Shown here: one piece after another, positions 5,062-60,984 of the stretch
Layout of the letters: each line of letters begins with the position of its first letter
Numbering within the stretch: the first letter of the stretch is position 1
Virus record (IMG/VR): IMGVR_UViG_3300015242_000020
Coordinates: 1 to 64,000 of that record
Source: a virus
Length of the DNA: 64,000 bases
Direction: 5' to 3' (one strand)
Made by a program: the position numbers and the translations under genes
The notes under the pieces: generated by a model
Databases searched by the model: none
Told to the model about the DNA's origin: nothing
Seen by the model: only the letters and a program-made list of their open reading frames with translations

Positions 5062-5131
5062 GGCGATATGACCGGGCAGGCGAACGATGGCTGCAACCCA
5101 TCGGTTTCGAGTTCGACTCTCGATATCGCTT
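5062..5131 (+). tRNA. tRNA-Cys(GCA)-like, weak D-arm
   Basis: Acceptor GGCGATA/TATCGCT, U73 discriminator, anticodon arm GATGG-CTGCAAC-CCATC, T-arm TCGAG-TTCGACT-CTCGA. Confidence 0.7.
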
Positions 5132-5253
5132 CGACCGAGGCCCGGTGGGCCAAGGTAGTGATCGGTGGACTCGTTCGGACGGACTGTCTCCATCGGTCAT
5201 CTGATCAATGCCGAGCTGGAGGACGACTCCAACGATTGATGCCCGACCACATG

Positions 5254-52378: not shown

Positions 52379-52680
52379 GACTCGACCCCCTCTGTGGCCT
52401 CGCCGGCCTCCACCTGAACCACACCGCGCTCGATCGAGGCTTTGGGGTCCTCATCTACCTCATCGTCTGGTCCACCGGCCACGGCCAACACAGCCCCGCG
52501 CACGCAGCCCTTCTTGCAGGCGAACCACTCGCCGCCGATGCCACCGCGCTCGTTGATCAGGCTGGCAGTGCCGTGGTAGCCCCAGGGCACCGCCTCGTCG
52601 TATTCCGGGTCGTGCAGGACCACCCGGCCGCAGGCGGGGTTGTCGCAGGTGTACTGGTCGACCTTGATCTCGGTCTTCAT
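52375..52680 (-). CDS. hypothetical Cys-containing protein
   Basis: YTCDNPAC..FACKKGC; AAGGA RBS. Confidence 0.65.
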   Translation of the reverse strand: MKTEIKVDQYTCDNPACGRVVLHDPEYDEAVPWGYHGTASLINERGGIGGEWFACKKGCVRGAVLAVAGGPDDEVDEDPKASIERGVVQVEAGEATEGVES

Positions 52681-52733
52681 CAGGGCATCCTTTGTCTCAG
52701 AGGTCGAGGGAGAAGCATAGAGCGCAGAGGCAA

Positions 52734-52765
52734 GACCGCCGGGGTAGTCCAGCGCCCCGGCGGTC
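52734..52765 (-). terminator. hairpin after the 27-aa ORF
   Basis: GACCGCCGGGG...CCCCGGCGGTC. Confidence 0.55.
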
Positions 52766-52772
52766 GCCGTGC

Positions 52773-52856
52773 TTAGACCGTCCAGGTCAGGCCGTCACGT
52801 TTGGCCCATGTCGCGCCATCGCGCAACCAAGACGTACCTCTCGTATTTTTCACCAT
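52773..52856 (-). CDS. 27-aa peptide MVKNTRGTSWLRDGATWAKRDGLTWTV
   Basis: Strong SD GGGAGGTGA; has its own promoter and a downstream hairpin. Confidence 0.55.
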   Translation of the reverse strand: MVKNTRGTSWLRDGATWAKRDGLTWTV

Positions 52857-52970
52857 TACCTTCACCTCCCGGACCGTGATCGGAGGCATGTCACGCTCAG
52901 CCGGATTCGTCGGCGATGAGCCAGGTAACTGCCAGGGACCCCTCAATCACACTGAGTGGGGGATGATCTG

Positions 52971-52999
52971 ATGTTAAGGATTCTTGGAACCCATGTCAA
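52971..52999 (-). promoter_or_regulatory. near-consensus SigA promoter TTGACA-N17-TAACAT with operator CAAGAATCCTTA
   Basis: Read directly from the sequence. Confidence 0.7.
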
Positions 53000-53000
53000 G

Positions 53001-53032
53001 CAAAGGCCGGCGACCCTTTAGGACTGCCGGCC
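53001..53032 (-). terminator. terminator of the tRNA operon
   Basis: GGCCGGC...GCCGGCC followed by TTTG. Confidence 0.6.
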
Positions 53033-53046
53033 GGGGGGAAGATGTC

Positions 53047-53190
53047 GCAGGAGGGCTACACGGTTTACCGCAGCCCTCGGACTGTCCGGATGCGCTGTCC
53101 GGCCTTACCGAGTGGCTCGCTCTGCCGCTAGCCGGATTCGTGGTGCACCACTACTACCGACGCGCCTCGCTGAGACTGGCGCCCTCCCGC
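53047..53190 (-). ncRNA. putative structured ncRNA after the last tRNA
   Basis: Ends pair (GCGGGAGGGC/GCCCTCCTGC); internal hairpins. Confidence 0.5.
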
Positions 53191-53191
53191 G

Positions 53192-53264
53192 CTTCCCCAC
53201 CAGGACTCGAACCTGGAACCGTCGCCTTAACAGGGCGCTGCGCTGCCAGTTGCGCTATAGGGAA
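53192..53264 (-). tRNA. tRNA-Asn(GTT)
   Basis: Cloverleaf folded by hand. Confidence 0.9.
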
Positions 53265-53308
53265 TTGGGTTTGAGAGGGGGCCCAGTTACCCGGGCCCCC
53301 TCTCACCG

Positions 53309-53383
53309 TAGCGGGTGAAGGATTTGAACCTTCGACCTTTGGGATATGAGCCCAACGAGCTGACCGAGCTGCTCTAACCCGCC
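53309..53383 (-). tRNA. tRNA-Met(CAT), initiator-like anticodon stem
   Basis: GGG/CCC anticodon-stem pairs; G1:U72. Confidence 0.9.
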
Positions 53384-53402
53384 ATGTCCTTGCATCGTAC
53401 AG

Positions 53403-53478
53403 TCCGGGGAGCAGGATTTGAACCTGCGCATCGCCTGTTTATAAGACAGGAGCCTTACCCCGACTTGGCCATCCCCGG
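53403..53478 (-). tRNA. tRNA-Ile(TAT)
   Basis: CCTGT-CTTATAA-ACAGG anticodon arm. Confidence 0.85.
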
Positions 53479-53490
53479 CAGGGATGATCG

Positions 53491-53565
53491 TCCCGGAGGC
53501 TGGATTTGAACCAGCGACACCATCCGTATCAGGGATGCGCTCTACCCAAGCTGAGCTACTCCGGA
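53491..53565 (-). tRNA. tRNA-Ile(GAT)
   Basis: Cloverleaf. Confidence 0.9.
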
Positions 53566-53568
53566 TCG

Positions 53569-53631
53569 GCTCCGGGAGAGTCATCCTCCCGAAGGTCATG
53601 CTCTAAGGCCCCTTACCCGGATGACCGGAGC
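53569..53631 (-). ncRNA. structured spacer element
   Basis: GCTCCGG/CCGGAGC and GTCATCC/GGATGAC stems. Confidence 0.35.
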
Positions 53632-53649
53632 TGCAGCGCAGGGCACTTG

Positions 53650-53722
53650 TCGACGTGGCGTGACTCGAACACGCATACCTGCTGGGTGTAAACCAGTTGC
53701 TCGCCAGTTGAGCTACACGTCG
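53650..53722 (-). tRNA. tRNA-Val(TAC)
   Basis: Cloverleaf. Confidence 0.88.
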
Positions 53723-53980
53723 CTGGCATCGGGCCAACGCCACTGCTGGCAAGCAGTGCCCCGGGGAAAGGAAGGGGGATGCCGCCCCAGACCTCCGCGT
53801 TGGACCCTCCGCGCCGACCCCCTCGGCATCGAACCGAGAACCCCCGGTACTTCACACCGGTGCTACTACCCGACTGAGCTTGAGGCCGTTGCCCTCGGCC
53901 TTCTCGCAGAGAGTTGGCCGAGGTCGTGCTAGTCCCTTCACCGGCTGACAGTTGAGGCTCGTGGTGAGCCCGGATGCCAG
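53723..53980 (-). ncRNA. putative structured RNA enclosing tRNA-Phe
   Basis: Terminal helix CTGGCATC(C)GGGC/GCCCGATGCCAG with nested stems. Confidence 0.5.
53814..53888 (-). tRNA. tRNA-Phe(GAA), atypical
   Basis: CCGGT-GTGAAGT-ACCGG anticodon arm; T-arm CTCGG-TTCGATG-CCGAG. Confidence 0.75.
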
Positions 53981-54044
53981 TCCGTCCTGCGACGGGTCTG
54001 CAAGAAACCTTAGACGACCGAGTAGTCGTCGCGCAAGTCTTGCG

Positions 54045-54117
54045 AGCAGGTGACGGGATTCGAACCCGCAACAGCGACCTTGGAAGGGTCGTACACGTCC
54101 AGTTGTGATTCACCTGC
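54045..54117 (-). tRNA. tRNA-Gly(TCC)
   Basis: Cloverleaf; U73. Confidence 0.88.
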
Positions 54118-54122
54118 ATGGA

Positions 54123-54239
54123 GTACGCCCCTGGCTATCCTCGCGAGATGGACGTCAGCGGAGACTGAAAAGCCTAGTAAACACCGGAATCTCTCCGGCT
54201 TACTCTTCGGGCCCCGTACGGCCATAGCCAGGGACGTAC
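54123..54239 (-). ncRNA. putative structured ncRNA with 16-bp closing helix
   Basis: GTACGTCCCTGGCTAT/ATAGCCAGGGGCGTAC. Confidence 0.5.
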
Positions 54240-54243
54240 CTCG

Positions 54244-54316
54244 GGTGACGGACGGGGCTCGAACCCGCAGCCTCCGGATTCACAATCCGGCGTCCTACCA
54301 ATCGGACTTCCGTCAC
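54244..54316 (-). tRNA. tRNA-His(GTG)
   Basis: Cloverleaf; C73; G-1 not encoded. Confidence 0.9.
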
Positions 54317-54318
54317 AG

Positions 54319-54391
54319 CACGAGCGCGAGGAGTCGAACCTCGATTATCCGGTTTTGGAGACCGGTGTGTTCCCAGTTACACCACGCCCGC
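54319..54391 (-). tRNA. tRNA-Trp(CCA)
   Basis: Cloverleaf. Confidence 0.9.
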
Positions 54392-54513
54392 AGAGATACC
54401 TCGGGGATGGTGTCGATGCCATCGGTTCATCATGCGGGCGCTCCTCTCTTAGGATCGTGCTGTGCGGTTCCAGGAACCCACCGTAGCAGCAGAATCCCTG
54501 GAGCCGCCAGCGT

Positions 54514-55011
54514 TTAGTTGCCCTTCCATCGCTGTCCATGGACGATCCTGTGAATTTGCGGTCGACCAACACCAAATCGATCCGAGAGATCGCACTGGCG
54601 TTGACCATCAGCGAACAGACTGCGGATCTCGACCACCTGATTCCACGTGAGCTTGGCCTCATGATGTTGTTCGCCAGGACGACCGCGTTTCCGATCGCGA
54701 CCACGCTCGATCATGTCTCGGATATTGTCCGCCTGCGTTCCTCCGAGCCAATGAGCGGGATTCTGGCACGGAGGCACGTCACAAGTGTGACGCACTACCC
54801 GAGGAGGCATCATGTCGTACTCCAGTAGCCATCCTGCTCGGTGCGCGGTCCAGATCAAGTGCTTGCCTGTGTCGTCGTTGCCGACATAGATCGAGCCGTG
54901 GCCGAATGGGTGCGTGGCCGCCGTCCATAACCAGCAATCATCAGGACCACGGCGCACGTACTTCTCTTCGTACCTTTCTCGCAATGTGAGGCTGACTTGC
55001 ACCCTATGCAC
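54514..55011 (-). CDS. HNH homing endonuclease with C-terminal HTH
   Basis: CWLWT, AHRAGW, VRHTCDVPPCQNPAH..GTQADN and AKLT. Confidence 0.9.
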   Translation of the reverse strand: MHRVQVSLTLRERYEEKYVRRGPDDCWLWTAATHPFGHGSIYVGNDDTGKHLIWTAHRAGWLLEYDMMPPRVVRHTCDVPPCQNPAHWLGGTQADNIRDMIERGRDRKRGRPGEQHHEAKLTWNQVVEIRSLFADGQRQCDLSDRFGVGRPQIHRIVHGQRWKGN

Positions 55012-56194
55012 CCTTTACGTTCAGAAATTGCCGCAGCTCGTGCCGGATCTCGACCATGTCCGCCGCATCCGCCATCACGGTGTCGATCGGCTTGTACGCG
55101 TCCGGGTGCTCATCCAGGAATGCATCGGACTCACCCCAGACCACGCCGGCCGCCGCCATCTTGGCGTTCAGGTCCTCCCGGGTAAACAGCGACTTGGCCG
55201 CCGACCGGGAGTGTGCCCGACCAGCACCATGTGGAGCGGAGTTCAGCGAGTCGCTGTTGCCCTTACCGATGACCACGTAGCTCCTGGTACCCATCGAGCC
55301 CGGAATGAGCCCAGCGACGCCCTCAGCCGCGTTGATGGCGCCCTTGCGGGATACCCACACCGGCTTGCCGCCCCAGACCTCGGCCACGGTGTAGTTGTGG
55401 TGGCAGGAGATCTCCTCCAGTCGCTGCACCGACTTGCCCGAGTCGGTCCAGACGCCCAGGCAGTCCAGCACCCGGTCCATCATCTCGGCTCGGTTCAGCC
55501 GCGCCCACAGCTGCGCCCAGTTCAGCGCCTCCATGTACCGGACGAACCCCGGTGTGCCCTCCTCCAGGTAGGCCAGGTCCTTGTTCGGCAGCGGAGTCTT
55601 GTCGTGCTCGCACTGGGCCTTGGCGATCTTGATGTGCTGCTGGGCCAGTTTGTTGCCCACGCCTCGGGATCCGGAGTGCAGGAAGGCCCAGACCCGGTCC
55701 TCTTCGTCGTAGGACAGCTCGATGAAGTGGTTTCCGGAGCCCAGCGAGCCCAGCTGTGCTCGCCAGTCCACGCCGGTGTTGTCTGCCTGCTCGACACTCC
55801 AGGTCAGCTCCAGCTCGAAAATCCGGCGCTTGGCCGTGGTCGAAATGGTCTGGTTGCGGGCGCCGGCCGAGAGCGGTACCGCCGAGGCGATCGAGCGATG
55901 CAGGTCCCGCAGGCTCTTCCCGTCCTGCACCAGATAATCAATGGTTGTCTTGGTGTACGGGGTGAGCACTGCATCCATTCCGCAGCCAATATCCACTCCG
56001 ACCGCCGAGGGCATGATCGCCTGGTAGGTAGGAATGACCGAGCCGACCGTGGCGCCCAGGCCGAGATGGGCATCCGGCATCAATGCCAGGTGCGGATGGA
56101 TGAACGGCATGCTGGCGGTCTCATACGCCTGAGCCAGGGTCTTGGGATCCAGGATCGATGCGTAGTTGACCAGCTTGTCGGTGAGGCGCTCCAC
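55004..56194 (-). CDS. rtcB: RtcB RNA ligase
   Basis: MPDAH, GVDIGCG, GSGNHF, HSGSRG, HHNY, PGSMG, PHGAGR and DEHPDAYK. Confidence 0.95.
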   Translation of the reverse strand: MERLTDKLVNYASILDPKTLAQAYETASMPFIHPHLALMPDAHLGLGATVGSVIPTYQAIMPSAVGVDIGCGMDAVLTPYTKTTIDYLVQDGKSLRDLHRSIASAVPLSAGARNQTISTTAKRRIFELELTWSVEQADNTGVDWRAQLGSLGSGNHFIELSYDEEDRVWAFLHSGSRGVGNKLAQQHIKIAKAQCEHDKTPLPNKDLAYLEEGTPGFVRYMEALNWAQLWARLNRAEMMDRVLDCLGVWTDSGKSVQRLEEISCHHNYTVAEVWGGKPVWVSRKGAINAAEGVAGLIPGSMGTRSYVVIGKGNSDSLNSAPHGAGRAHSRSAAKSLFTREDLNAKMAAAGVVWGESDAFLDEHPDAYKPIDTVMADAADMVEIRHELRQFLNVKGA

Positions 56195-56237
56195 GGTGGG
56201 ACTCCTTGGGGTCGTCAGGGGATATTTCTATCTTGCG

Positions 56238-56322
56238 CGGAGAGCGAAGGATTCGCACCCTCGTCGGGTTACCCCGAGCCTCCGGATTCCAACCGGGCAC
56301 ATTGCTGCTCTGTCAGCTCTCC
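56238..56322 (-). tRNA. tRNA-Ser(GGA)
   Basis: Long variable arm; deviant T-loop TGCGAAT. Confidence 0.75.
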
Positions 56323-56323
56323 A

Positions 56324-56412
56324 TGGCGGAAGATGCACGACTTGAACGTGCGCCGGGTCTCCCCGGGCCTCGGTTTAGCAAACCGGCGCCTTGCCAACTC
56401 AGCCAATCTTCC
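56324..56412 (-). tRNA. tRNA-Ser(GCT)
   Basis: Long variable arm; CCA encoded. Confidence 0.88.
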
Positions 56413-56422
56413 ATGATCATCG

Positions 56423-56507
56423 AAGAGGGTAACGGAGTCGAACCGTCGGGACGCACTGCCCGGTCTGGGTTTCGAAGCCAGTCGCCTACCACTAAGCACT
56501 ACCCTCC
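56423..56507 (-). tRNA. tRNA-Ser(CGA), atypical fold
   Basis: Long variable arm; 6-bp D-stem; U73. Confidence 0.75.
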
Positions 56508-56517
56508 ATACATTGCG

Positions 56518-56590
56518 CATCTCCGCCTGGATTCGAACCAAGACTGTCCGCGTCCAAAGCGCGGCGGGCTGCCGATTACCCCACGGAGAT
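56518..56590 (-). tRNA. tRNA-Gln(TTG)
   Basis: Cloverleaf. Confidence 0.88.
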
Positions 56591-56601
56591 TTACTGACGA
56601 G

Positions 56602-56673
56602 CACCGGTATCTGGACTCGAACCAAAACGACCTGGCTCAGAACCAGGCAGGCTGCCAATTACCTCATACCGAT
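56602..56673 (-). tRNA. tRNA-Gln(CTG)
   Basis: Cloverleaf. Confidence 0.88.
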
Positions 56674-56682
56674 CTGACCTCG

Positions 56683-56755
56683 CGCGCTGCACCCGATTCG
56701 AACAGGTGACCCCTGCCTTCGGAGGGCAGTGCTCTATCCACTGAGCTAGCAGCGC
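56683..56755 (-). tRNA. tRNA-Arg(CCG)
   Basis: Cloverleaf. Confidence 0.9.
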
Positions 56756-56756
56756 T

Positions 56757-56833
56757 TGGTTTCCCAGAGAGGATTCGAACCTCCGACTTCTGCATCCGTA
56801 GTGCAGCGCTCTAATCCACTGAGCTACTGGGAA
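56757..56833 (-). tRNA. tRNA-Arg(ACG)
   Basis: Cloverleaf; CCA encoded. Confidence 0.9.
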
Positions 56834-56834
56834 A

Positions 56835-56910
56835 TGGTGCCTCCGACAGGATTCGAACCTGCATACCATCGGGGTAGGGGCCCGGCGCTCATCCGTTGAG
56901 CTACGAAGGC
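56835..56910 (-). tRNA. tRNA-Arg(CCT)
   Basis: Cloverleaf; C33; CCA encoded. Confidence 0.82.
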
Positions 56911-56993
56911 TTGGCTCCCATGGACTTATTTGTGAGCCTGGGAGCTTCGAAGCCACAGAATGAGACGGTGATCAGGCGCCCCTATCTATGCTG

Positions 56994-57065
56994 CGATCCT
57001 GACGGGAATTGAACCCGCACAATCCACCGTGACAGGGTGGCGCTCTACCGTTAAGCCACAGGATC
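56994..57065 (-). tRNA. tRNA-Asp(GTC)
   Basis: Cloverleaf. Confidence 0.9.
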
Positions 57066-57113
57066 TTAGTGTCCTTCCGAGAAAGCCCGTACATGGAGAA
57101 CTCGGAAGGAACG

Positions 57114-57186
57114 TCCGCCCCGAGGGACTCGAACCCTCGACCCACCGAGTAAGAGTCGGTTGTCTCTGCCGCTGAGCTAGAGGCGG
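57114..57186 (-). tRNA. tRNA-Lys(CTT)
   Basis: Cloverleaf. Confidence 0.85.
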
Positions 57187-57191
57187 TTATT

Positions 57192-57275
57192 GACGGGGGA
57201 TTGGGATGTACTGGGAATCGAACCCAGCACCGAAGGGCCTCTCCGGCCGTATCCACACGTAATCCCACCCCCGTC
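57192..57275 (-). ncRNA. tRNA-like RNA with extended acceptor helix and no anticodon loop
   Basis: T-arm CTGGG-TTCGATT-CCCAG; closing helix of about 16 bp. Confidence 0.55.
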
Positions 57276-57322
57276 GGGGTGCCGGTTTCTCATCCGGCTC
57301 TGCGGCCGTACGAACCGCATTG

Positions 57323-57395
57323 TGGAGATGACAGGCTTCGAACCCGCGACATCCTGGTTGCAGGCCAGGCGCTCTACCAACTGAGCTACATCCCC
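57323..57395 (-). tRNA. tRNA-Ala(TGC)
   Basis: G3:U70; C33. Confidence 0.9.
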
Positions 57396-57407
57396 TTGAT
57401 CTAAACG

Positions 57408-57482
57408 TCCGCCCCCTCGGATTCGAACCGAGACTCTGACGTGGTAAAAGCACGCGGTTTTGGCCAATTAAACTAGAGGCGG
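57408..57482 (-). tRNA. tRNA-Lys(TTT)
   Basis: Cloverleaf. Confidence 0.85.
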
Positions 57483-57487
57483 TTATA

Positions 57488-57579
57488 GCCCCAACCCGGC
57501 GCAAGGTCACCATTATGGATCGGTCGGTTACGTGATCCGCCTCGCTATTCGCGGTCCGACAACCGTCCGGGTTGGGGTA
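57488..57579 (-). ncRNA. putative structured ncRNA
   Basis: CCCCAACCCGG/CCGGGTTGGGG closing helix and two inner hairpins. Confidence 0.5.
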
Positions 57580-57581
57580 TG

Positions 57582-57653
57582 CAGTCCCGGTGGGAATCGA
57601 ACCCACACCCTCTGATTGAGAATCAGGAATCCAGACCACTAGACGACGGGACC
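57582..57653 (-). tRNA. tRNA-Glu(CTC)
   Basis: Cloverleaf. Confidence 0.88.
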
Positions 57654-57692
57654 AAAAGTATTGAGTTTTCAAAGGCCAGATGTAACTGTGCG

Positions 57693-57766
57693 TACCGCAG
57701 GTGAGAGTCGAACTCACATCAACCTGATCCTAAATCAGGCGCCTCGCCGGTTTGGGCTACTGCGGC
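57693..57766 (-). tRNA. tRNA-Leu(TAG), short variable loop
   Basis: Cloverleaf; A73. Confidence 0.85.
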
Positions 57767-57782
57767 ATATTCAGTTGTGACG

Positions 57783-57856
57783 TGCCCCCGGAGTGATTCG
57801 AACACTCACCACCTGGGATTTGACTCCAGTGCATCTGCCAATTGTGCTACGGAGGC
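57783..57856 (-). tRNA. tRNA-Leu(CAA), short variable loop
   Basis: Anticodon loop GTCAAAT; A73. Confidence 0.8.
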
Positions 57857-57861
57857 GTACC

Positions 57862-57949
57862 TGGTGCGTAGGGGAGGAATCGAACCTCCGCCGTCCAGAG
57901 GATCCGGCTTTACAGGCCGGCGCAGCCAACCAACAGCTACCTCCTACGC
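57862..57949 (-). tRNA. tRNA-Tyr(GTA)
   Basis: Long variable arm; extended D-stem; CCA encoded. Confidence 0.85.
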
Positions 57950-57953
57950 GCGG

Positions 57954-58029
57954 GGCCGGTGACAGGAATTGAACCTGCGTTCGCCTGATTACTAAACAGG
58001 TGCTGTGAGCCAACGTCAGCTACACCGGC
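57954..58029 (-). tRNA. tRNA-Thr(AGT)
   Basis: GCCGGTG acceptor; anticodon loop TTAGTAA. Confidence 0.8.
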
Positions 58030-58041
58030 CGGTCTGGGGAA

Positions 58042-58176
58042 TCAGAGATATCGAGCCGTTGTGGCTCGCTGATCCTCATCGGCGCTGGAGGTTCGTTGAT
58101 CTCGCTGTCGGAGGGATTCCCGGGCACGCAGGGATGACCGCTTTCGCAGTCTCAGGCCGAGTCGTTTCGCTCGCAT
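58042..58176 (-). CDS. 44-aa Arg-rich leader ORF
   Basis: GGAGAGGAGG RBS; 12 Arg codons, 8 of them CGA. Confidence 0.5.
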   Translation of the reverse strand: MRAKRLGLRLRKRSSLRARESLRQRDQRTSSADEDQRATTARYL

Positions 58177-58413
58177 CGCGTGCCTCCTCTCCGTGGTCTT
58201 GTATGACCAGTGAAGCATCCCTAGAACCCGGGTGTCAACTGGTTTCCTCCTCCGGTATGCTCGCCGGCATCCCGTACTGAGTAGGCCGTGACTGGCCGAG
58301 GGGGCGCGGTGCAATGCGGGGTGTACTGCGTGAGACGACCTGCACCCGCTCGGTCGGCTGGTCAAGGCGCCTTGTCAGCGCTGTTTCCAGTCGGCCGGTC
58401 GGTCGGGCGGACT

Positions 58414-58785
58414 TCAGCCCCGGGTCGGAGTGAGCGCGAGCCGCTCGTGCGCCTGGTAGCCGTCCACCACCGCCGAGTCCTCCGGCGGAGGGGCACCCGG
58501 ACCGGTCCAGACGAACCGTAGGACGCCGTCAGCGATCGGGTAGGCCAAGGACCAGCCGGCGCCCTCCATGTCCCGCAGCCGGCGCCTGAGGGCCTTGAGC
58601 ACCTCGGTCAGGATGTCCAGCTCGGCGATACCCTCGAACATCTCGGCGAAGTTGTCGGACGGGGTATAGGCGTTGCCGGCCTCACCATAGTGCCGGGGAT
58701 CGTCACGAGGATCGCAATCATCATGGCCGGTAGAGCACCGCACCGGAGGGCTCTCCAGCTCGAAGCCGGGGTTGCTCAGCGCCAT
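58414..58785 (-). CDS. hypothetical protein
   Basis: ATG 58785 after GAGG. Confidence 0.6.
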   Translation of the reverse strand: MALSNPGFELESPPVRCSTGHDDCDPRDDPRHYGEAGNAYTPSDNFAEMFEGIAELDILTEVLKALRRRLRDMEGAGWSLAYPIADGVLRFVWTGPGAPPPEDSAVVDGYQAHERLALTPTRG

Positions 58786-59279: not shown

Positions 59280-60428
59280 TTAGCCGCTGTGAGTAACAGC
59301 CCCAGAAGGAAGACCAGGTGCCACCACAGGCGCCGCCTCGGTTGAGGTGCTGGTGTAGTACTGGTTGATCGGCTGGGAGTACAACGGGTAGGCAGTCGGG
59401 TTGCCCAGAGGCACCGGCGAAAGGATCGTCTGGTTCGCAACCTTTGTAATGCTGGCGATACCGCGTGGGTTGAGAATCGCCATTGAGACGAACTCGTCCA
59501 TCACCCAGCCTCGGTAGAATTCCTCGACGTTGTTGTTCTCCTCGACGTCCAAGGAGTACAGCACCGGGAAGACACCCAGGAACTCCGGCTCCGGCAGCAG
59601 GTACACGGTGTTGCGAGGCACCATGACCGACCGCTGGATCTGGAACTCACCGAACGTGGTGATCTTCTGACCCGCGACCACTCGGTCCTTCATCGCCCAA
59701 CCGGTCTCGGCCTGCGGGAAGAGGTAGAAGTCCCGGTAGTCGGCCACGTTCATCAGCAGTCGGGCCGACTCGATCTCACGCAGGTCCGTCATCGTGACGG
59801 CGGTGTAGAGCGCCGCCGGGCTGATCGGGCCGTTGTCACCAATGACCACCGTCTGGGCACCCGGAGTGGGGTTGTCCGGCCGGGTGGCATAGGCGGTCAG
59901 GGCGGCCTGTAGCAGGATCATCAGCCGCGAGTCCTCTTGCTTGAGGATCGCCTGCTTCGACTCGTCCTGGGCGTGCTCGACCATATTGACCTTGAGCTGG
60001 TACAGGTCCTCTTTCCGGATCGCCGGACGGGAGGCGATACGGAAGAAGTCTACCCGAGTCCGCTTGCCCTCGAACGGGGTGACCCGGACCTCACCGTCGT
60101 GCCCAGAGAGCAGGTAAGCCTGTCCGAGGTCATCGATGATGTCGTAGACGGTCTCCGTACCGGGGGTGATCGGGTCTTCCAGCAGCACGTTGCGGACCAT
60201 GCCCTCGTACCGCAACTTCAGCTGGATCGGGCCAATCATGCCGACGCCAAGCCGGTGGAATCCGGCCACCCGGTCGGACATGATCTTTTCCATCCGCGCG
60301 GTCTTCTGCGCGGTGGTGGGCTTGGGCACGTTGCCCTGAGCGTCGGCGTGCTTCAGATACTCAGCAACGTAATCGTCGCTCTTCTTGGCGGTGCGGTACA
60401 TCCCACCGGCCAGGACTGGAGCCGTCAT
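59280..60428 (-). CDS. major capsid protein
   Basis: MIGPIQLKLRYEG.VRNVLLED, TPFEGKR, FGEFQIQRS and GWVMDE..M.ILNPRGI (Bxz1-like MCP); start ATG 60428. Confidence 0.9.
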   Translation of the reverse strand: MTAPVLAGGMYRTAKKSDDYVAEYLKHADAQGNVPKPTTAQKTARMEKIMSDRVAGFHRLGVGMIGPIQLKLRYEGMVRNVLLEDPITPGTETVYDIIDDLGQAYLLSGHDGEVRVTPFEGKRTRVDFFRIASRPAIRKEDLYQLKVNMVEHAQDESKQAILKQEDSRLMILLQAALTAYATRPDNPTPGAQTVVIGDNGPISPAALYTAVTMTDLREIESARLLMNVADYRDFYLFPQAETGWAMKDRVVAGQKITTFGEFQIQRSVMVPRNTVYLLPEPEFLGVFPVLYSLDVEENNNVEEFYRGWVMDEFVSMAILNPRGIASITKVANQTILSPVPLGNPTAYPLYSQPINQYYTSTSTEAAPVVAPGLPSGAVTHSG

Positions 60429-60462
60429 GCTTGTTCCTCTCTCAGTCTCTCGACGGGATGTG

Positions 60463-60984
60463 TTAGGCCGAAGCGCCGACGTCGCCGGTCTGCAGGCCAC
60501 CGATGCACAGCTGGCTGGCAGAGTCGACACGGATCAGTCGGGCGATGGCGCGGGTGGATCCGGTCGTGCCCTGCGGCACGAGCTTGCCTCGGTTGGCACC
60601 GGTGTTCGACGCCGAGATCAGCGCCACCGTGCCGTTGCCCGGGTCGGTCCAGGTCTTGGTGGTGTCGAATGCTGGTGCCTGCACGAGCGCCTCGCCATCA
60701 GGGTCGAGCACCCAGCAAGCCAGGGCGTTCACGTTGGCATCGAGCAGCTCGTCGATGCCGTCGCCGCCGATGTAGTTGCCGAAGAACCCGTACGGCACGC
60801 CGGTGGAGTTCACCAGCGTGACCAGGTCTCCGGTCGTCTTCATGGCGACCATGCCCGGCCAGATCGCGATCGAGCGGTCCCAGGCGGGGTCGAGAAACTT
60901 GTTCTGCGGGGTCGCCTGGGTCCATCCGTACTGGATTTTCCAGGGCCGAGACAAGTACGGCTTGGAAAGGGGTACACGTAGCAC
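60463..60984 (-). CDS. capsid decoration/minor capsid protein
   Basis: TQATP..FLDPAWDRS, PGMVAM and GGDGIDE; precedes the MCP. Confidence 0.75.
   Translation of the reverse strand: MLRVPLSKPYLSRPWKIQYGWTQATPQNKFLDPAWDRSIAIWPGMVAMKTTGDLVTLVNSTGVPYGFFGNYIGGDGIDELLDANVNALACWVLDPDGEALVQAPAFDTTKTWTDPGNGTVALISASNTGANRGKLVPQGTTGSTRAIARLIRVDSASQLCIGGLQTGDVGASA

What the first reader, a model, noticed from the sequence alone, without database searches (positions are those of the whole stretch)
53047..57579. tRNA cluster interleaved with a suite of non-tRNA structured RNAs, beside RtcB
Seen: spacers between the 26 tRNAs are either short (a few to about 40 nt) or 60-260 nt. Most of the long spacers fold into end-closed, multi-stem RNAs without a convincing ORF: 57488-57579, 57192-57275, about 54435-54507, 54123-54239, 53723-53980, 53569-53631 and 53047-53190. 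Their ends abut tRNA ends, so RNase P and 3' processing would release them as discrete RNAs. Known: phage tRNA clusters host GOLLD, Y-like RNAs and theta ribozymes, and RtcB ligates 2',3'-cyclic-phosphate/5'-OH ends. Inference: this is a co-transcribed ncRNA cassette. The pieces may be separate decoys or scaffolds, or domains of one large RNA split by tRNAs; ligation or circularisation by RtcB is possible.
Basis: partly seen in the sequence, partly recalled or inferred. Interest (0 to 1): 0.82.

Follow-up and report, generated by a model that had tools for sequence, protein, structure and literature searches.

The report
Structured spacers in phage tRNA array
A soil phage carries 25 tRNA genes in one row, and several of the gaps between them fold into unusually stable hairpin bundles or tRNA look-alikes, but nothing yet shows that these are a coordinated set of new functional RNAs.

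Summary
The window is the first 64 kb of a 135.6-kb high-GC myovirus record. On the minus strand, 25 tRNA genes (58029 to 53191) are split by RtcB and an HNH endonuclease gene. As a set the long spacers are more stable than background: 6 of 9 have z below -2, against 12 of 90 random genome windows. Only two (57483-57580, 54118-54242) have an end-closing helix beyond chance (0 of 500 shuffles each); 53047-53190 is marginal. Two others derive from tRNA. 56424-56507 is a non-canonical tRNA-Ser-like cloverleaf shared with a distant phage array (6 compensatory pairs of 25). 57192-57275 is a T-arm/acceptor mimic without an anticodon arm. No spacer matches any Rfam family (GOLLD, ROOL, YrlA and ribozymes included). 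The genome has no Ro/TROVE gene, and the spacers do not pair with one another. In one related phage, seen only through contigs of coded runs, some spacers are 94-97% conserved, but they sit in mosaic low-divergence blocks and show no compensatory change. The best-closed spacers did not align. My best reading is a mixed set of self-folding precursor spacers plus tRNA relics; RtcB serves tRNA repair. The scan's look-up found no look-alike on other DNA.

The parts
56237..58029 (-). Upstream half of the tRNA array: 16 ARAGORN tRNAs (Thr-AGT, Tyr, Leu x2, Glu, Lys-UUU, Ala, Lys-CUU, Asp, Arg x3, Gln x2, Ser x2)
57483..57580 (-). Spacer A (tRNA-Glu to tRNA-Lys-UUU), 98 nt. An 11-bp perfect closing helix starts 3 nt after one tRNA and ends 6 nt before the next, with inner hairpins
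   Evidence: z -3.15; closing helix 0 of 500 shuffles; no Rfam hit on the minus strand at E up to 5; equally stable on the plus strand; no aligned piece listed for the related phage (table truncated)
57187..57321 (-). Spacer B (tRNA-Ala to tRNA-Lys-CUU), 135 nt. Two small 5' hairpins, then the tRNA mimic 57192-57275: an 8-bp outer stem, a 2-nt bulge, a 6-bp acceptor-like stem stacked on an 8-bp T-stem with a canonical 7-nt T-loop, a GG-containing D-like stretch, and a 4-bp/5-nt hairpin where the anticodon arm would be
   Evidence: z -3.58 for the whole spacer and -3.57 for the core, 0 of 200 shuffles. Weak hits, all below cut-off: tmRNA ends 18.5 bits (cut-off 47), mascRNA 17.1 (42.5), Deinococcus Y RNA 14.5 (80). 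Not called by ARAGORN. A model of the core finds no second copy in 8 sources
57066..57112 (-). Short spacer b2: a single stem-loop of about 12 bp between tRNA-Lys-CUU and tRNA-Asp
   Evidence: z -3.88; 57066-57100 lies in a piece with 3 differences in 108 in the related phage
56911..56992 (-). Spacer C: two separate hairpins, not end-closed
   Evidence: z -2.31 on the minus strand, -0.62 on the plus strand; closing test 285 of 500
56424..56507 (-). Element D: a non-canonical long-variable-arm tRNA-Ser-like cloverleaf. I read the anticodon as CGA, in a 9-nt loop or a 7-nt loop over a C-C mismatch. It sits just upstream of the two tRNA-Ser genes
   Evidence: tRNA-Sec model 32.9 bits (cut-off 47); absent from the ARAGORN and RF00005 lists. 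Homologue in L001:3503-3584: 25 pairs, 6 with both sides changed, 0 broken. Ser tRNAs also precede RtcB in L033
55004..56194 (-). RtcB RNA ligase gene with its own AAGGAG ribosome-binding site, inside the array
   Evidence: PF01139 E 3e-105. Closest cellular homologues are Geodermatophilaceae at 60-64%. Also embedded in tRNA arrays in L001, L033, L071 and L024
54514..55011 (-). HNH homing endonuclease gene inserted at the RtcB stop codon; a mobile insertion
   Evidence: PHROG endonuclease/HNH families, E 6e-23. Positions 54521-55010 are absent, by a clean 490-nt skip, from the related phage contigs of runs X3 and X4
54392..54513 (-). Spacer E: a strong hairpin straight after the stop codon, then an unstructured leader of tRNA-Trp
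   Evidence: z -1.75; not end-closed (278 of 500); 54314-54520 has 12 substitutions and 2 gaps in 207 in the related phage
53191..54391 (-). Downstream half of the array: 9 ARAGORN tRNAs (Trp, His, Gly, Phe, Val, Ile-GAU, Ile-UAU, Met, Asn)
   Evidence: tRNA-Phe 53813-53888 is called by ARAGORN only
54118..54242 (-). Spacer F (tRNA-His to tRNA-Gly), 125 nt. A 17-bp closing helix (2 G-U pairs) fills the gap to within 2-3 nt of both tRNAs and encloses 3-4 small hairpins
   Evidence: z -4.30 on the minus strand against -2.73 on the plus strand; closing helix 0 of 500; no Rfam hit. In the related phage only about 43 nt (54205-54247) aligned at 80% or better, although the Gly-F-His block has the same length, 274 nt
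53889..54043 (-). Spacer G, 155 nt: three or four local hairpins, not end-closed
   Evidence: z -3.37; closing test 247 of 500; lies in the block 53569-54040, which has 23 substitutions and 7 gaps in 472 in the related phage
53723..53812 (-). Spacer H, 90 nt, GC-rich, no significant structure. Its 3' end can pair 12 bp (one bulge) with 53968-53980 in spacer G, across tRNA-Phe
   Evidence: z -0.58; composite 53723-53980 z -1.57; the G-H pair is not among the eight most significant pairs listed (z above -0.9)
53566..53648 (-). Spacer I, 83 nt: one 10-bp hairpin plus weak pairing; not significant
   Evidence: z -0.41; closing test 253 of 500
53265..53307 (-). Spacer i2: a 15-17-bp GC-rich hairpin without a U tail between tRNA-Met and tRNA-Asn
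   Evidence: z -6.11; a similar hairpin at genome 101541-101573
53047..53190 (-). Spacer J: a 144-nt trailer after the last tRNA (Asn), with a 10-12-bp closing helix and two well-defined inner hairpins
   Evidence: z -2.64; closing test 18 of 500; no Rfam hit at E up to 5. Of the 4 substitutions shown in the related phage, one is in a loop, one makes G-C into G-U, and two break predicted inner pairs; none is compensatory
53005..53032 (-). Terminal GC hairpin followed by a T-rich tail: the probable terminator of the array
   Evidence: fold. Two substitutions in the related phage turn two G-U pairs into G-C (-19.2 to -25.4 kcal/mol). The scan's own terminator rule (loop of 8 or less) did not list it
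52971..52999 (-). Promoter-like site TTGACA-17-TAACAT for the next transcription unit
   Evidence: 10 of 12 consensus matches

Best explanation
The gaps in this phage tRNA array are a mixed set, not one system.

(1) Two are tRNA-derived. 56424-56507 is a conserved but non-canonical tRNA-Ser-like gene. 57192-57275 is a tRNA relic or mimic that keeps the acceptor/T-arm 'elbow' but has no anticodon arm.

(2) Three are plain hairpins with ordinary roles. 54392-54513 begins with the 3' hairpin of the rtcB (and now HNH) message. 53265-53307 and 57066-57112 are single stem-loops.

(3) The rest (57483-57580, 54118-54242, 53047-53190, 53889-54043, 56911-56992) are self-folding spacers of a long multi-tRNA precursor. 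Inferred mechanism: each spacer pairs with itself, so it cannot mispair with the neighbouring tRNA halves. It leaves 2-6 free nucleotides at each tRNA end for RNase P and the 3' enzymes. The 11-17-bp closing duplexes offer entry sites for double-strand-specific or 5'-end-dependent host nucleases. The released pieces may persist for a while, like the two non-tRNA 'species I and II' RNAs of the phage T4 tRNA region.

RtcB is there to reseal tRNAs cut by host anticodon nucleases or toxins, not to join spacers. The HNH gene is a selfish insertion, and its homing helps explain the patchwork conservation of the array.

Shown: the fold statistics, the tRNA likeness, the absence of known families, the HNH presence/absence difference and the mosaic conservation. 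Inferred: co-transcription, processing, and any stability of the released pieces.
For: - Structure above background: 6 of 9 long spacers have z below -2 and 4 of 9 below -3, against 12 of 90 and 4 of 90 control windows.
- The structure is stronger on the transcribed strand for spacers B, C, F, G and J (z -3.58/-1.99, -2.31/-0.62, -4.30/-2.73, -3.37/-2.51, -2.64/-2.01).
- Closing helices that reach the tRNA ends are significant for A and F (0 of 500 each).
- Heterogeneity: D is a cloverleaf with 6 compensatory pairs of 25 against L001. B has only tRNA-type weak hits. E follows the stop codon directly.
- No known RNA family.
- No inter-spacer pairing: 1 of 78 pairs at z below -2.
- Other actinophage arrays also carry long spacers, many with T-arm fragments or missed tRNAs. 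In L001, L024 and L071, 26 spacers have mean z -1.5, with 5 of 26 below -2. Rhodococcus phage Francesca shows the same.
- RtcB is embedded in tRNA arrays in unrelated contigs. Published long tRNA arrays have RtcB and homing endonucleases as neighbours (passages of PMC8421152).
[quoted passage not shown] 1 legend and abstract of PMC2330249).
- The HNH gene is absent from the related phage.
Against: - No RNA data exist. No listed run holding this DNA is an RNA run, so processing and co-transcription are untested.
- In the one related phage, spacers J, I, H, G and E are only about 3-7% diverged while rtcB is 8.8% diverged (361 of 395 residues identical). This could mean selection on the spacer sequences themselves, which a mere 'insulator' role would not demand.
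- The mimic at 57192-57275 is too well formed (perfect T-loop, GG stretch, 22 stacked pairs) to be dismissed as decay. It could be a real trans-acting RNA.
- The insulator/processing role is an inference from anatomy. No spacer helix has a compensatory change to support it, and spacer A folds equally well on the other strand, as a DNA palindrome would.
Confidence: 0.5

Rival explanations
1. At least some spacers (the mimic 57192-57275, and A, F, J) are genuine trans-acting small RNAs. They would be cut out of the tRNA precursor by RNase P and 3' enzymes and would accumulate. The mimic could serve as a decoy for host tRNA-targeting nucleases or as a Y-RNA-like adaptor for host proteins. The others could act as sponges or scaffolds, as proposed by the first reader and as long suspected for the T4 species I and II RNAs.
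For: - Strong, strand-biased structure for B and F.
- Closing helices abut the tRNA ends.
- B shares its layout with the Deinococcus Y RNA model: a stem closed by both ends, an inner stem, and the same T-arm (alignment). Bacterial Y RNAs carry T-arm-like stem-loops, and one is cut by RNase P and receives CCA (passages of PMC4201824).
- J, G, H, I and E are 93-97% identical in a phage whose rtcB is 91% identical.
- Non-tRNA RNA genes exist in T4-type tRNA regions.
Against: - All Y-RNA scores are far below cut-off: 14.5 against 80, and the YrlA hits fall on tRNA genes.
- There is no Ro/TROVE gene in a 93%-complete genome.
- The model of B finds no second example in 8 sources.
- No spacer has a homologue in GenBank phages or in the fetched loci.
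- The best-closed spacers, A and F, did not align at 80% or better in the closest relative. The conserved ones include the unstructured H and I, so conservation follows mosaic blocks rather than structure.
- The block that holds J also holds a small ORF with only 6 substitutions shown in 214 nt, 4 of them at third codon positions. Its low divergence may therefore simply be recent exchange (my reading).
- The substitutions seen in J and H are not compensatory, whereas tRNA-Val in the same contig shows 3 fully compensated pairs.
Confidence: 0.22
2. The long spacers are mostly non-functional debris of array turnover. They would be decayed tRNA genes, scars of homing-endonuclease-driven gene conversion, and palindromic leftovers. 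Their structure would be inherited from what they once were.
For: - B and D are visibly tRNA-derived.
- Spacers of other arrays are full of T-arm fragments and partial tRNAs.
- The array differs between close relatives by whole tRNA genes and blocks. The upstream half is 2236 letters in the relative against 1849 here. The Met-Ile-Ile and Gly-F-His blocks are collinear but aligned below 80%. The HNH gene is present here and absent there.
- Spacer A is as stable on the non-transcribed strand (-43.4 against -42.5 kcal/mol), as a DNA palindrome would be.
- No spacer has a homologue beyond near relatives.
Against: - Apart from B and D, no spacer shows any tRNA-like signal even with permissive filters.
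- The excess of stable folds over genome background and the exact fit of the A and F closing helices to the inter-tRNA gap are not expected of random decay.
- A phage with a packaging limit would be expected to lose about 1.2 kb of useless DNA (general inference).
Confidence: 0.2
3. The spacers are domains of one large RNA interrupted by tRNAs. After the tRNAs are excised, the pieces would be held together by base pairing and joined or circularised by RtcB.
For: RtcB lies in the array. A 12-bp helix with one bulge can bridge tRNA-Phe (53968-53980 with 53723-53734; read and present in the fold).
Against: - Only 1 of 78 spacer pairs is more complementary than shuffles at z below -2. That one (57654-57691 with 53265-53307) joins an AT-rich linker to a GC hairpin.
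- The bridged composite has z -1.57.
- No self-cleaving ribozyme is present to make RtcB-type ends.
- RNase P and RNase Z ends are the wrong chemistry for RtcB (established enzymology, recalled).
- The related phage has a different set and order of pieces.
Confidence: 0.03

Closest known systems
Phage T4 tRNA gene region (eight tRNAs, RNA species I and II, SegB homing endonuclease)
   Same: A phage tRNA cluster that also encodes non-tRNA small RNA genes and a free-standing homing endonuclease gene that related phages lack (PMC2330249, abstract, introduction and Fig. 1 legend). Here, an HNH gene is absent from the related contigs.
   Different: There is no sequence relation, and I did not test one. 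The endonuclease here is HNH, not GIY-YIG. The array is three times larger and carries RtcB. In T4 the extra RNAs are known to accumulate (recalled); here nothing is known about expression.
Bacterial Y RNAs (Deinococcus Yrn1, YrlA)
   Same: 57192-57275 has a canonical T-arm nested in a long stem closed by its 5' and 3' ends. This is the layout of the Deinococcus Y RNA model in the alignment. Y RNAs mimic tRNA and are linked to RNA-repair operons that include RtcB (PMC4201824 passages; PMC7790460 search listing and abstract start only).
   Different: Scores are 14.5 bits against a cut-off of 80, and there is no YrlA hit on it. The phage has no Ro/TROVE gene. The Ro-binding helix motif was not examined. 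The list of phages with YrlA is in a supplement I could not open.
[quoted passage not shown]
   Same: Arrays of 20 to over 40 tRNA genes transcribed as an operon. They contain some tRNA pseudogenes and have RtcB and homing endonuclease genes in their neighbourhood or regulon (PMC8421152 passages).
   Different: Those are cellular or plasmid arrays induced by translational stress. The passages I read do not mention structured spacers (0 occurrences of 'spacer').
GOLLD, ROOL and theta (HDV-like) ribozymes next to phage tRNAs
   Same: Structured RNAs that sit beside tRNA genes in phages (search listings and abstract starts; passages of PMC10879173).
   Different: No match to any Rfam model of these or other ribozyme classes at E up to 10. 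The pieces here are 45-155 nt, far smaller than GOLLD or ROOL. The theta descriptor is given only in a figure and could not be run.
Functional tRNA-precursor spacers of E. coli (3' external transcribed spacer of the leuZ operon acting as an sRNA sponge)
   Same: The concept that a spacer released during tRNA maturation can itself act in trans.
   Different: Recalled from memory and not checked in any call. There is no sequence or structural relation, and nothing here points to a target.

Membership tests
GOLLD / ROOL large ornate RNAs | Match to the Rfam covariance model at or above its gathering score; size of several hundred nucleotides | tested here: not met
   No hit at gathering score in the window or at E up to 10 in 52500-58500. 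None at E up to 5 in spacer J, G-F or A searched alone. The longest spacer is 155 nt.
YrlA / Y RNA | Match to the Rfam YrlA or Deinococcus Y RNA model at gathering score | tested here: not met
   YrlA gives 23.3 and 21.2 bits (cut-off 69), both on tRNA-Arg genes. Deinococcus_Y_RNA gives 14.5 bits (cut-off 80, E 2.4) on 57192-57275.
YrlA / Y RNA | Encoded next to a Ro60/Rsr (TROVE) gene | tested here: not met
   PF05731 gives 0 matches in the 135,564-bp record, which is 93% complete by CheckV; the control search rings in 2 genomes.
YrlA / Y RNA | tRNA-like T stem-loop nested in a stem formed by the RNA's 5' and 3' ends | tested here: met
   Fold of 57192-57275: -44.2 kcal/mol, z -3.57, 0 of 200 shuffles; alignment.
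Self-cleaving ribozymes (HDV-like including theta, hammerhead, twister and others) | Match to an Rfam ribozyme model; for theta, match to the published descriptor within 5 nt of a tRNA end | tested here: inconclusive
   No Rfam ribozyme hit at E up to 10. The theta descriptor is only in a figure of PMC10879173, and I do not know whether Rfam 15 holds a theta model.
Canonical tRNA (for 56424-56507) | Detected by ARAGORN or by RF00005 at 29 bits or more; 7-nt anticodon loop on a 5-bp stem | tested here: not met
   Not. The best clan hit is tRNA-Sec at 32.9 bits (cut-off 47). The consensus fold gives a 4-bp stem and 9-nt loop.
Canonical tRNA (for 56424-56507) | Cloverleaf maintained by compensatory changes in a homologue | tested here: met
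   Against L001:3503-3584: 25 pairs, 6 with both sides changed, 3 with one side changed, 0 broken. Only two sequences were compared.
tmRNA (for 57192-57275) | Rfam tmRNA at 47 bits or more, or an ARAGORN call with a tag reading frame | tested here: not met
   18.5 bits over the model ends only and 11.2 bits; ARAGORN finds no tmRNA in the window.
RtcB RNA ligase | Full-length match to Pfam PF01139 | tested here: met
   E 3.1e-105, residues 22-395 on profile positions 1-426 of 426.
Free-standing HNH homing endonuclease | HNH-family protein; gene present or absent between close relatives with clean boundaries | tested here: met
   PHROG 1872, 59, 6254 and others. A clean 490-nt skip, 54520 to 55011, in the contigs of runs X3 and X4. 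No Pfam hit at E 0.01 or better.
T4-type stable non-tRNA RNAs of a tRNA operon | Accumulates as a discrete stable RNA processed from the tRNA precursor | not testable with these tools
   No RNA run holds this DNA. The position inside a tRNA array is shared.

The most novel reading that the evidence does not exclude
The 84-nt element 57192-57275 is a phage-made 'elbow-only' tRNA mimic. It is released from the tRNA precursor and works as a decoy or adaptor. It could soak up host tRNA-cleaving defence nucleases, or recruit host tRNA-binding or Ro-type machinery. In this reading the closed modules at 57483-57580, 54118-54242 and 53047-53190 are further stable small RNAs of unknown class. The array would then be a combined tRNA supply, tRNA repair (RtcB) and decoy-RNA counter-defence cassette.
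Probability: 0.15. Interest if true: 0.7.

Novelty: new member of a known kind. Interest (0 to 1): 0.35.

Why it matters
Phage tRNA arrays are now read as counter-measures to host defences that cut or deplete tRNAs. RtcB inside such an array fits that picture. If even one spacer proves to be a stable decoy or adaptor RNA, it would add an RNA-based layer to that arms race. It would also give a second example, after the unexplained T4 species I and II RNAs, of non-tRNA cargo in a phage tRNA operon. If the spacers are only folding and processing punctuation, they still show how a precursor carrying 25 tRNAs can be kept from misfolding, which helps in designing synthetic multi-tRNA operons. As the evidence stands, this is an ordinary actinophage tRNA-RtcB-HNH array with unusually well-folded spacers and one interesting tRNA mimic.

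Tried and rejected
Homologues of the spacers:
- megablast and blastn of both halves of the array against 50,697 phage records hit tRNA genes only.
- blastn with word size 7 of 14 stretches (13 spacers and the leader) against 32 loci and the whole genome found nothing beyond the self hits and one hairpin look-alike.
- An exact 27-nt pattern from spacer J gave 0 hits in viral contigs.

Relatives by protein:
- RtcB scans of viral contigs, metagenome contigs and genome contigs gave at best 62-65% identity. Among the genome-contig loci, none held 4 or more tRNA genes.
- The major capsid protein gave one 2.3-kb contig in viral contigs and Cluster C mycobacteriophages at 52-54%, where the array is not next to the capsid gene.
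- A scan with the 76%-identical RtcB (P0124) did not recover its 145-kb contig.

Translating spurious ORFs across spacers A/B and F, to fish for relatives in the protein database, gave only the self hit and then nothing.

A single-sequence covariance model of the tRNA mimic found no other copy in 8 sources. Its power is low.

No RNA holder is listed for this DNA, so expression could not be examined. Parts of the array without listed pieces in runs X3 and X4 (spacers A, B, C and most of F) may reflect the truncated table (861 pieces not shown) rather than true absence.

Y-RNA reading: rejected as membership but kept as a resemblance. One-large-RNA reading: rejected. GOLLD-like reading of spacer J: rejected.

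The search for archease, CCA-adding enzyme and RNase III genes in the phage found none.

The supplements of PMC4201824 (list of phages with YrlA) and of the other papers were not opened. They might name related phages.

Full report
**What the window is.** The window is the first 64 kb of a single 135,564-bp virus record. The record is 93% complete by CheckV and has about 64% G+C. It encodes a tail sheath and a major head protein. The head protein is 52-54% identical to those of Cluster C (Bxz1-like) mycobacteriophages. The DNA occurs in soil-metagenome runs.

**Layout of the array.** The major head gene (59280-60530, minus strand) is followed about 1.2 kb downstream, on the same strand, by a tRNA array. 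ARAGORN tRNAs from 58029 down to 53191. The Rfam tRNA model finds 24 in the whole genome, all in the array, and misses tRNA-Phe. The array is split by rtcB (55004-56194, Pfam E 3e-105) and an HNH endonuclease gene (54514-55011). After the last tRNA come a 144-nt trailer, a GC hairpin with a T-rich tail, and a TTGACA-17-TAACAT promoter for the next unit. The scan finds no promoter-like site on the minus strand inside the array. One transcript is therefore plausible, but unproven.

**Checking the observation: spacer sizes.** Of the 24 gaps, 12 are 18 nt or less, 3 are 38-47 nt, 8 are 82-155 nt, and one holds the two protein genes.

**Checking the observation: fold stability.** I folded every gap of 38 nt or more on both strands against 200 dinucleotide shuffles. 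I calibrated the z-scores with 90 random windows of the same lengths from the same genome. These gave mean z -0.57, with 12 of 90 below -2 and 4 of 90 below -3. Among the nine long spacers that are not the tRNA-like element D, 6 fall below -2 and 4 below -3 (binomial 3e-4 and 4e-4). It holds for 53723-53812 (-0.58), 53566-53648 (-0.41) and 54392-54513 (-1.75).

**Checking the observation: strand bias.** For five spacers the z-score is clearly stronger on the transcribed strand, which suggests RNA-level pairing. Spacer 57483-57580 is equally stable on both strands.

**Checking the observation: end closure.** Pairing of the first and last 25 nt beats all 500 shuffles only for 57483-57580 (11 perfect pairs) and 54118-54242 (17 pairs, two of them G-U). 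It is marginal for 53047-53190 (18 of 500) and 53723-53812 (38 of 500), and at chance for four others.

**The tRNA-derived pieces.** 56424-56507 scores 32.9 bits on the tRNA-Sec model (cut-off 47) and is not called by ARAGORN. It folds as a cloverleaf with a long variable arm. It has a clear homologue in the spacer upstream of tRNA-Ser in the IMG/VR contig L001, whose RtcB is 62% identical. Of the 25 pairs, 6 changed on both sides and none is broken. I read it as a non-canonical tRNA-Ser (anticodon CGA, oversized loop).

57192-57275 is different. It has a perfect T-arm, a GG-containing D-like stretch, and a 4-bp/5-nt hairpin where the anticodon arm should be. Its acceptor-like stem is extended and sealed by eight more pairs (z -3.57). 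Rfam gives only sub-threshold tRNA-type hits: tmRNA ends 18.5 bits, mascRNA 17.1 bits and Deinococcus Y RNA 14.5 bits. The Y-RNA alignment shows the same layout, but membership fails. The score is far below the cut-off of 80, YrlA does not hit it, and the phage has no TROVE gene. A model built from it finds no other copy in the window or in seven phage-array loci.

**The ordinary hairpins.** Three gaps look ordinary. The first half of 54392-54513 is a hairpin straight after the stop codon. 53265-53307 and 57066-57112 are single hairpins.

**Known families.** None of the families named as precedent is present: GOLLD, ROOL, YrlA, SRP or any ribozyme. This holds at gathering score in the window, at E up to 10 in 6 kb, and at E up to 5 in three spacers searched alone with the laxest filters. 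The published theta-ribozyme descriptor could not be run.

**Relatives by sequence search.** No spacer has a DNA homologue in GenBank phages, in the fetched loci or elsewhere in the genome, or, for one 27-nt core, in IMG/VR. RtcB-based scans found four other contigs where RtcB sits within a tRNA array: L001, L024, L033 and L071. The arrangement therefore recurs. Those arrays also carry long spacers, many with T-arm fragments or missed tRNAs, and on average they are less structured than here (mean z -1.5, 5 of 26 below -2). Francesca is similar.

**The close relative seen through laid contigs.** Contigs of coded runs X3 and X4, laid on the window, belong to a phage whose RtcB is 361 of 395 residues identical. 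Against it:
- rtcB differs at 8.8% of bases.
- 52733-53299 (spacer J, terminator, promoter and a small ORF) differs at 3.2%.
- 53569-54040 (spacers I, H and G, tRNA-Val and tRNA-Phe) differs at 4.9%, with 11 of the 23 differences inside tRNA-Val.
- 54314-54520 (tRNA-Trp and spacer E) differs at 5.8%.
- The HNH gene is cleanly absent.
- The Met-Ile-Ile and Gly-F-His blocks are collinear but aligned below 80%.
- The upstream half is rearranged, 2236 letters against 1849 here.

**What the relative's differences show.** The method can see covariation. tRNA-Val shows three fully compensated pairs, and the terminator hairpin gains two G-C pairs from G-U. The substitutions shown in J and H, however, are not compensatory, and three of them break predicted pairs.

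The low divergence cannot be read as selection with any confidence. The same block holds a small ORF with only 6 substitutions shown in 214 nt, 4 of them at third codon positions. The unstructured spacers H and I are conserved, while the best-closed ones (A, F) did not align. Conservation follows mosaic blocks, as expected where a homing endonuclease drives gene conversion. The table is truncated (341 differences and 861 pieces not shown), so this is partial evidence.

**The two bolder ideas.** If the spacers were domains of one RNA, they should pair with each other. Only 1 of 78 spacer pairs exceeds shuffles at z below -2.

RtcB ligation needs a 3'-phosphate or cyclic-phosphate end and a 5'-OH end. 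RNase P and RNase Z leave the opposite chemistry (established enzymology, recalled), and no ribozyme was found. RtcB in tRNA arrays is better explained as repair of tRNAs cut by host nucleases. Published long tRNA arrays have RtcB and homing endonucleases as neighbours or co-regulated genes (passages of PMC8421152).

**Closest precedent and verdict.** The closest precedent for non-tRNA RNAs inside a phage tRNA operon is T4. [quoted passage not shown]

The spacers are unusually well folded, and two are neatly closed. The interpretation as a coordinated ncRNA cassette tied to RtcB is not supported. My confidences are:
- 0.5 for a mixed set of self-folding, cis-acting precursor spacers plus two tRNA-derived elements.
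- 0.22 for one or more real trans-acting small RNAs, the mimic being the best candidate.
- 0.2 for mere debris of array turnover.
- 0.03 for a split large RNA.

Interest is moderate to low (0.35). This is a new member of a known kind. The scan's look-up of look-alike stretches in other genomes found none.

Noticed in passing
window 54514-55011 (and 55004-55011): The HNH endonuclease gene starts inside the last codons of rtcB. The 490 nt from 54521 to 55010 are missing, with 5 nt of junction ambiguity, from the related phage. There the last RtcB residue would differ (my reading of the junction) and the protein keeps 396 residues. This is a textbook free-standing homing-endonuclease insertion.
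   Followed up: partly
window 53813-53888: ARAGORN's tRNA-Phe (GAA) gets no hit from the Rfam tRNA model, even at E 10. It has wobble pairs in the acceptor stem, a weak D stem, and G at positions 32 and 37 (my reading). It may be a non-standard or decaying tRNA.
   Followed up: partly
window 57952-58029 and 53402-53478: Unusual anticodons: tRNA-Thr with AGT (A34) and tRNA-Ile with TAT. No tRNA-Pro is present in the array.
   Followed up: no
window 58042-58176 (minus strand): A 44-codon, arginine-rich ORF with a strong ribosome-binding site ends 12 nt before the first tRNA. An earlier first-reader note flagged it as rich in CGA codons. I did not test it.
   Followed up: no
window 54379-54435 (minus strand): A GAGAGGAG ribosome-binding site and an ATG open an 18-codon frame that runs into the 5' end of tRNA-Trp. 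It is probably spurious.
   Followed up: no
window 52685-52733: The related phage carries 616 other letters in place of 47 nt here, just downstream of the array's neighbouring small ORF. This is another insertion/deletion difference.
   Followed up: no
window 5062-5132 (plus strand): A lone tRNA-Cys called by ARAGORN, far from the array and on the other strand. The Rfam tRNA model does not confirm it in the whole-genome search.
   Followed up: partly
window 55004-56194: The nearest cellular RtcB homologues (60-64%) are almost all from Geodermatophilaceae (Blastococcus, Klenkia, Geodermatophilus, Modestobacter) and Jatrophihabitans. This hints at the host lineage or the gene's source.
   Followed up: partly
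L001:5532-5616, L001:5767-5845, L024:11157-11341: In other phage arrays, several 'spacers' contain clear T-arm motifs or half-tRNAs that ARAGORN did not call. tRNA counts in such arrays are therefore underestimates.
   Followed up: no
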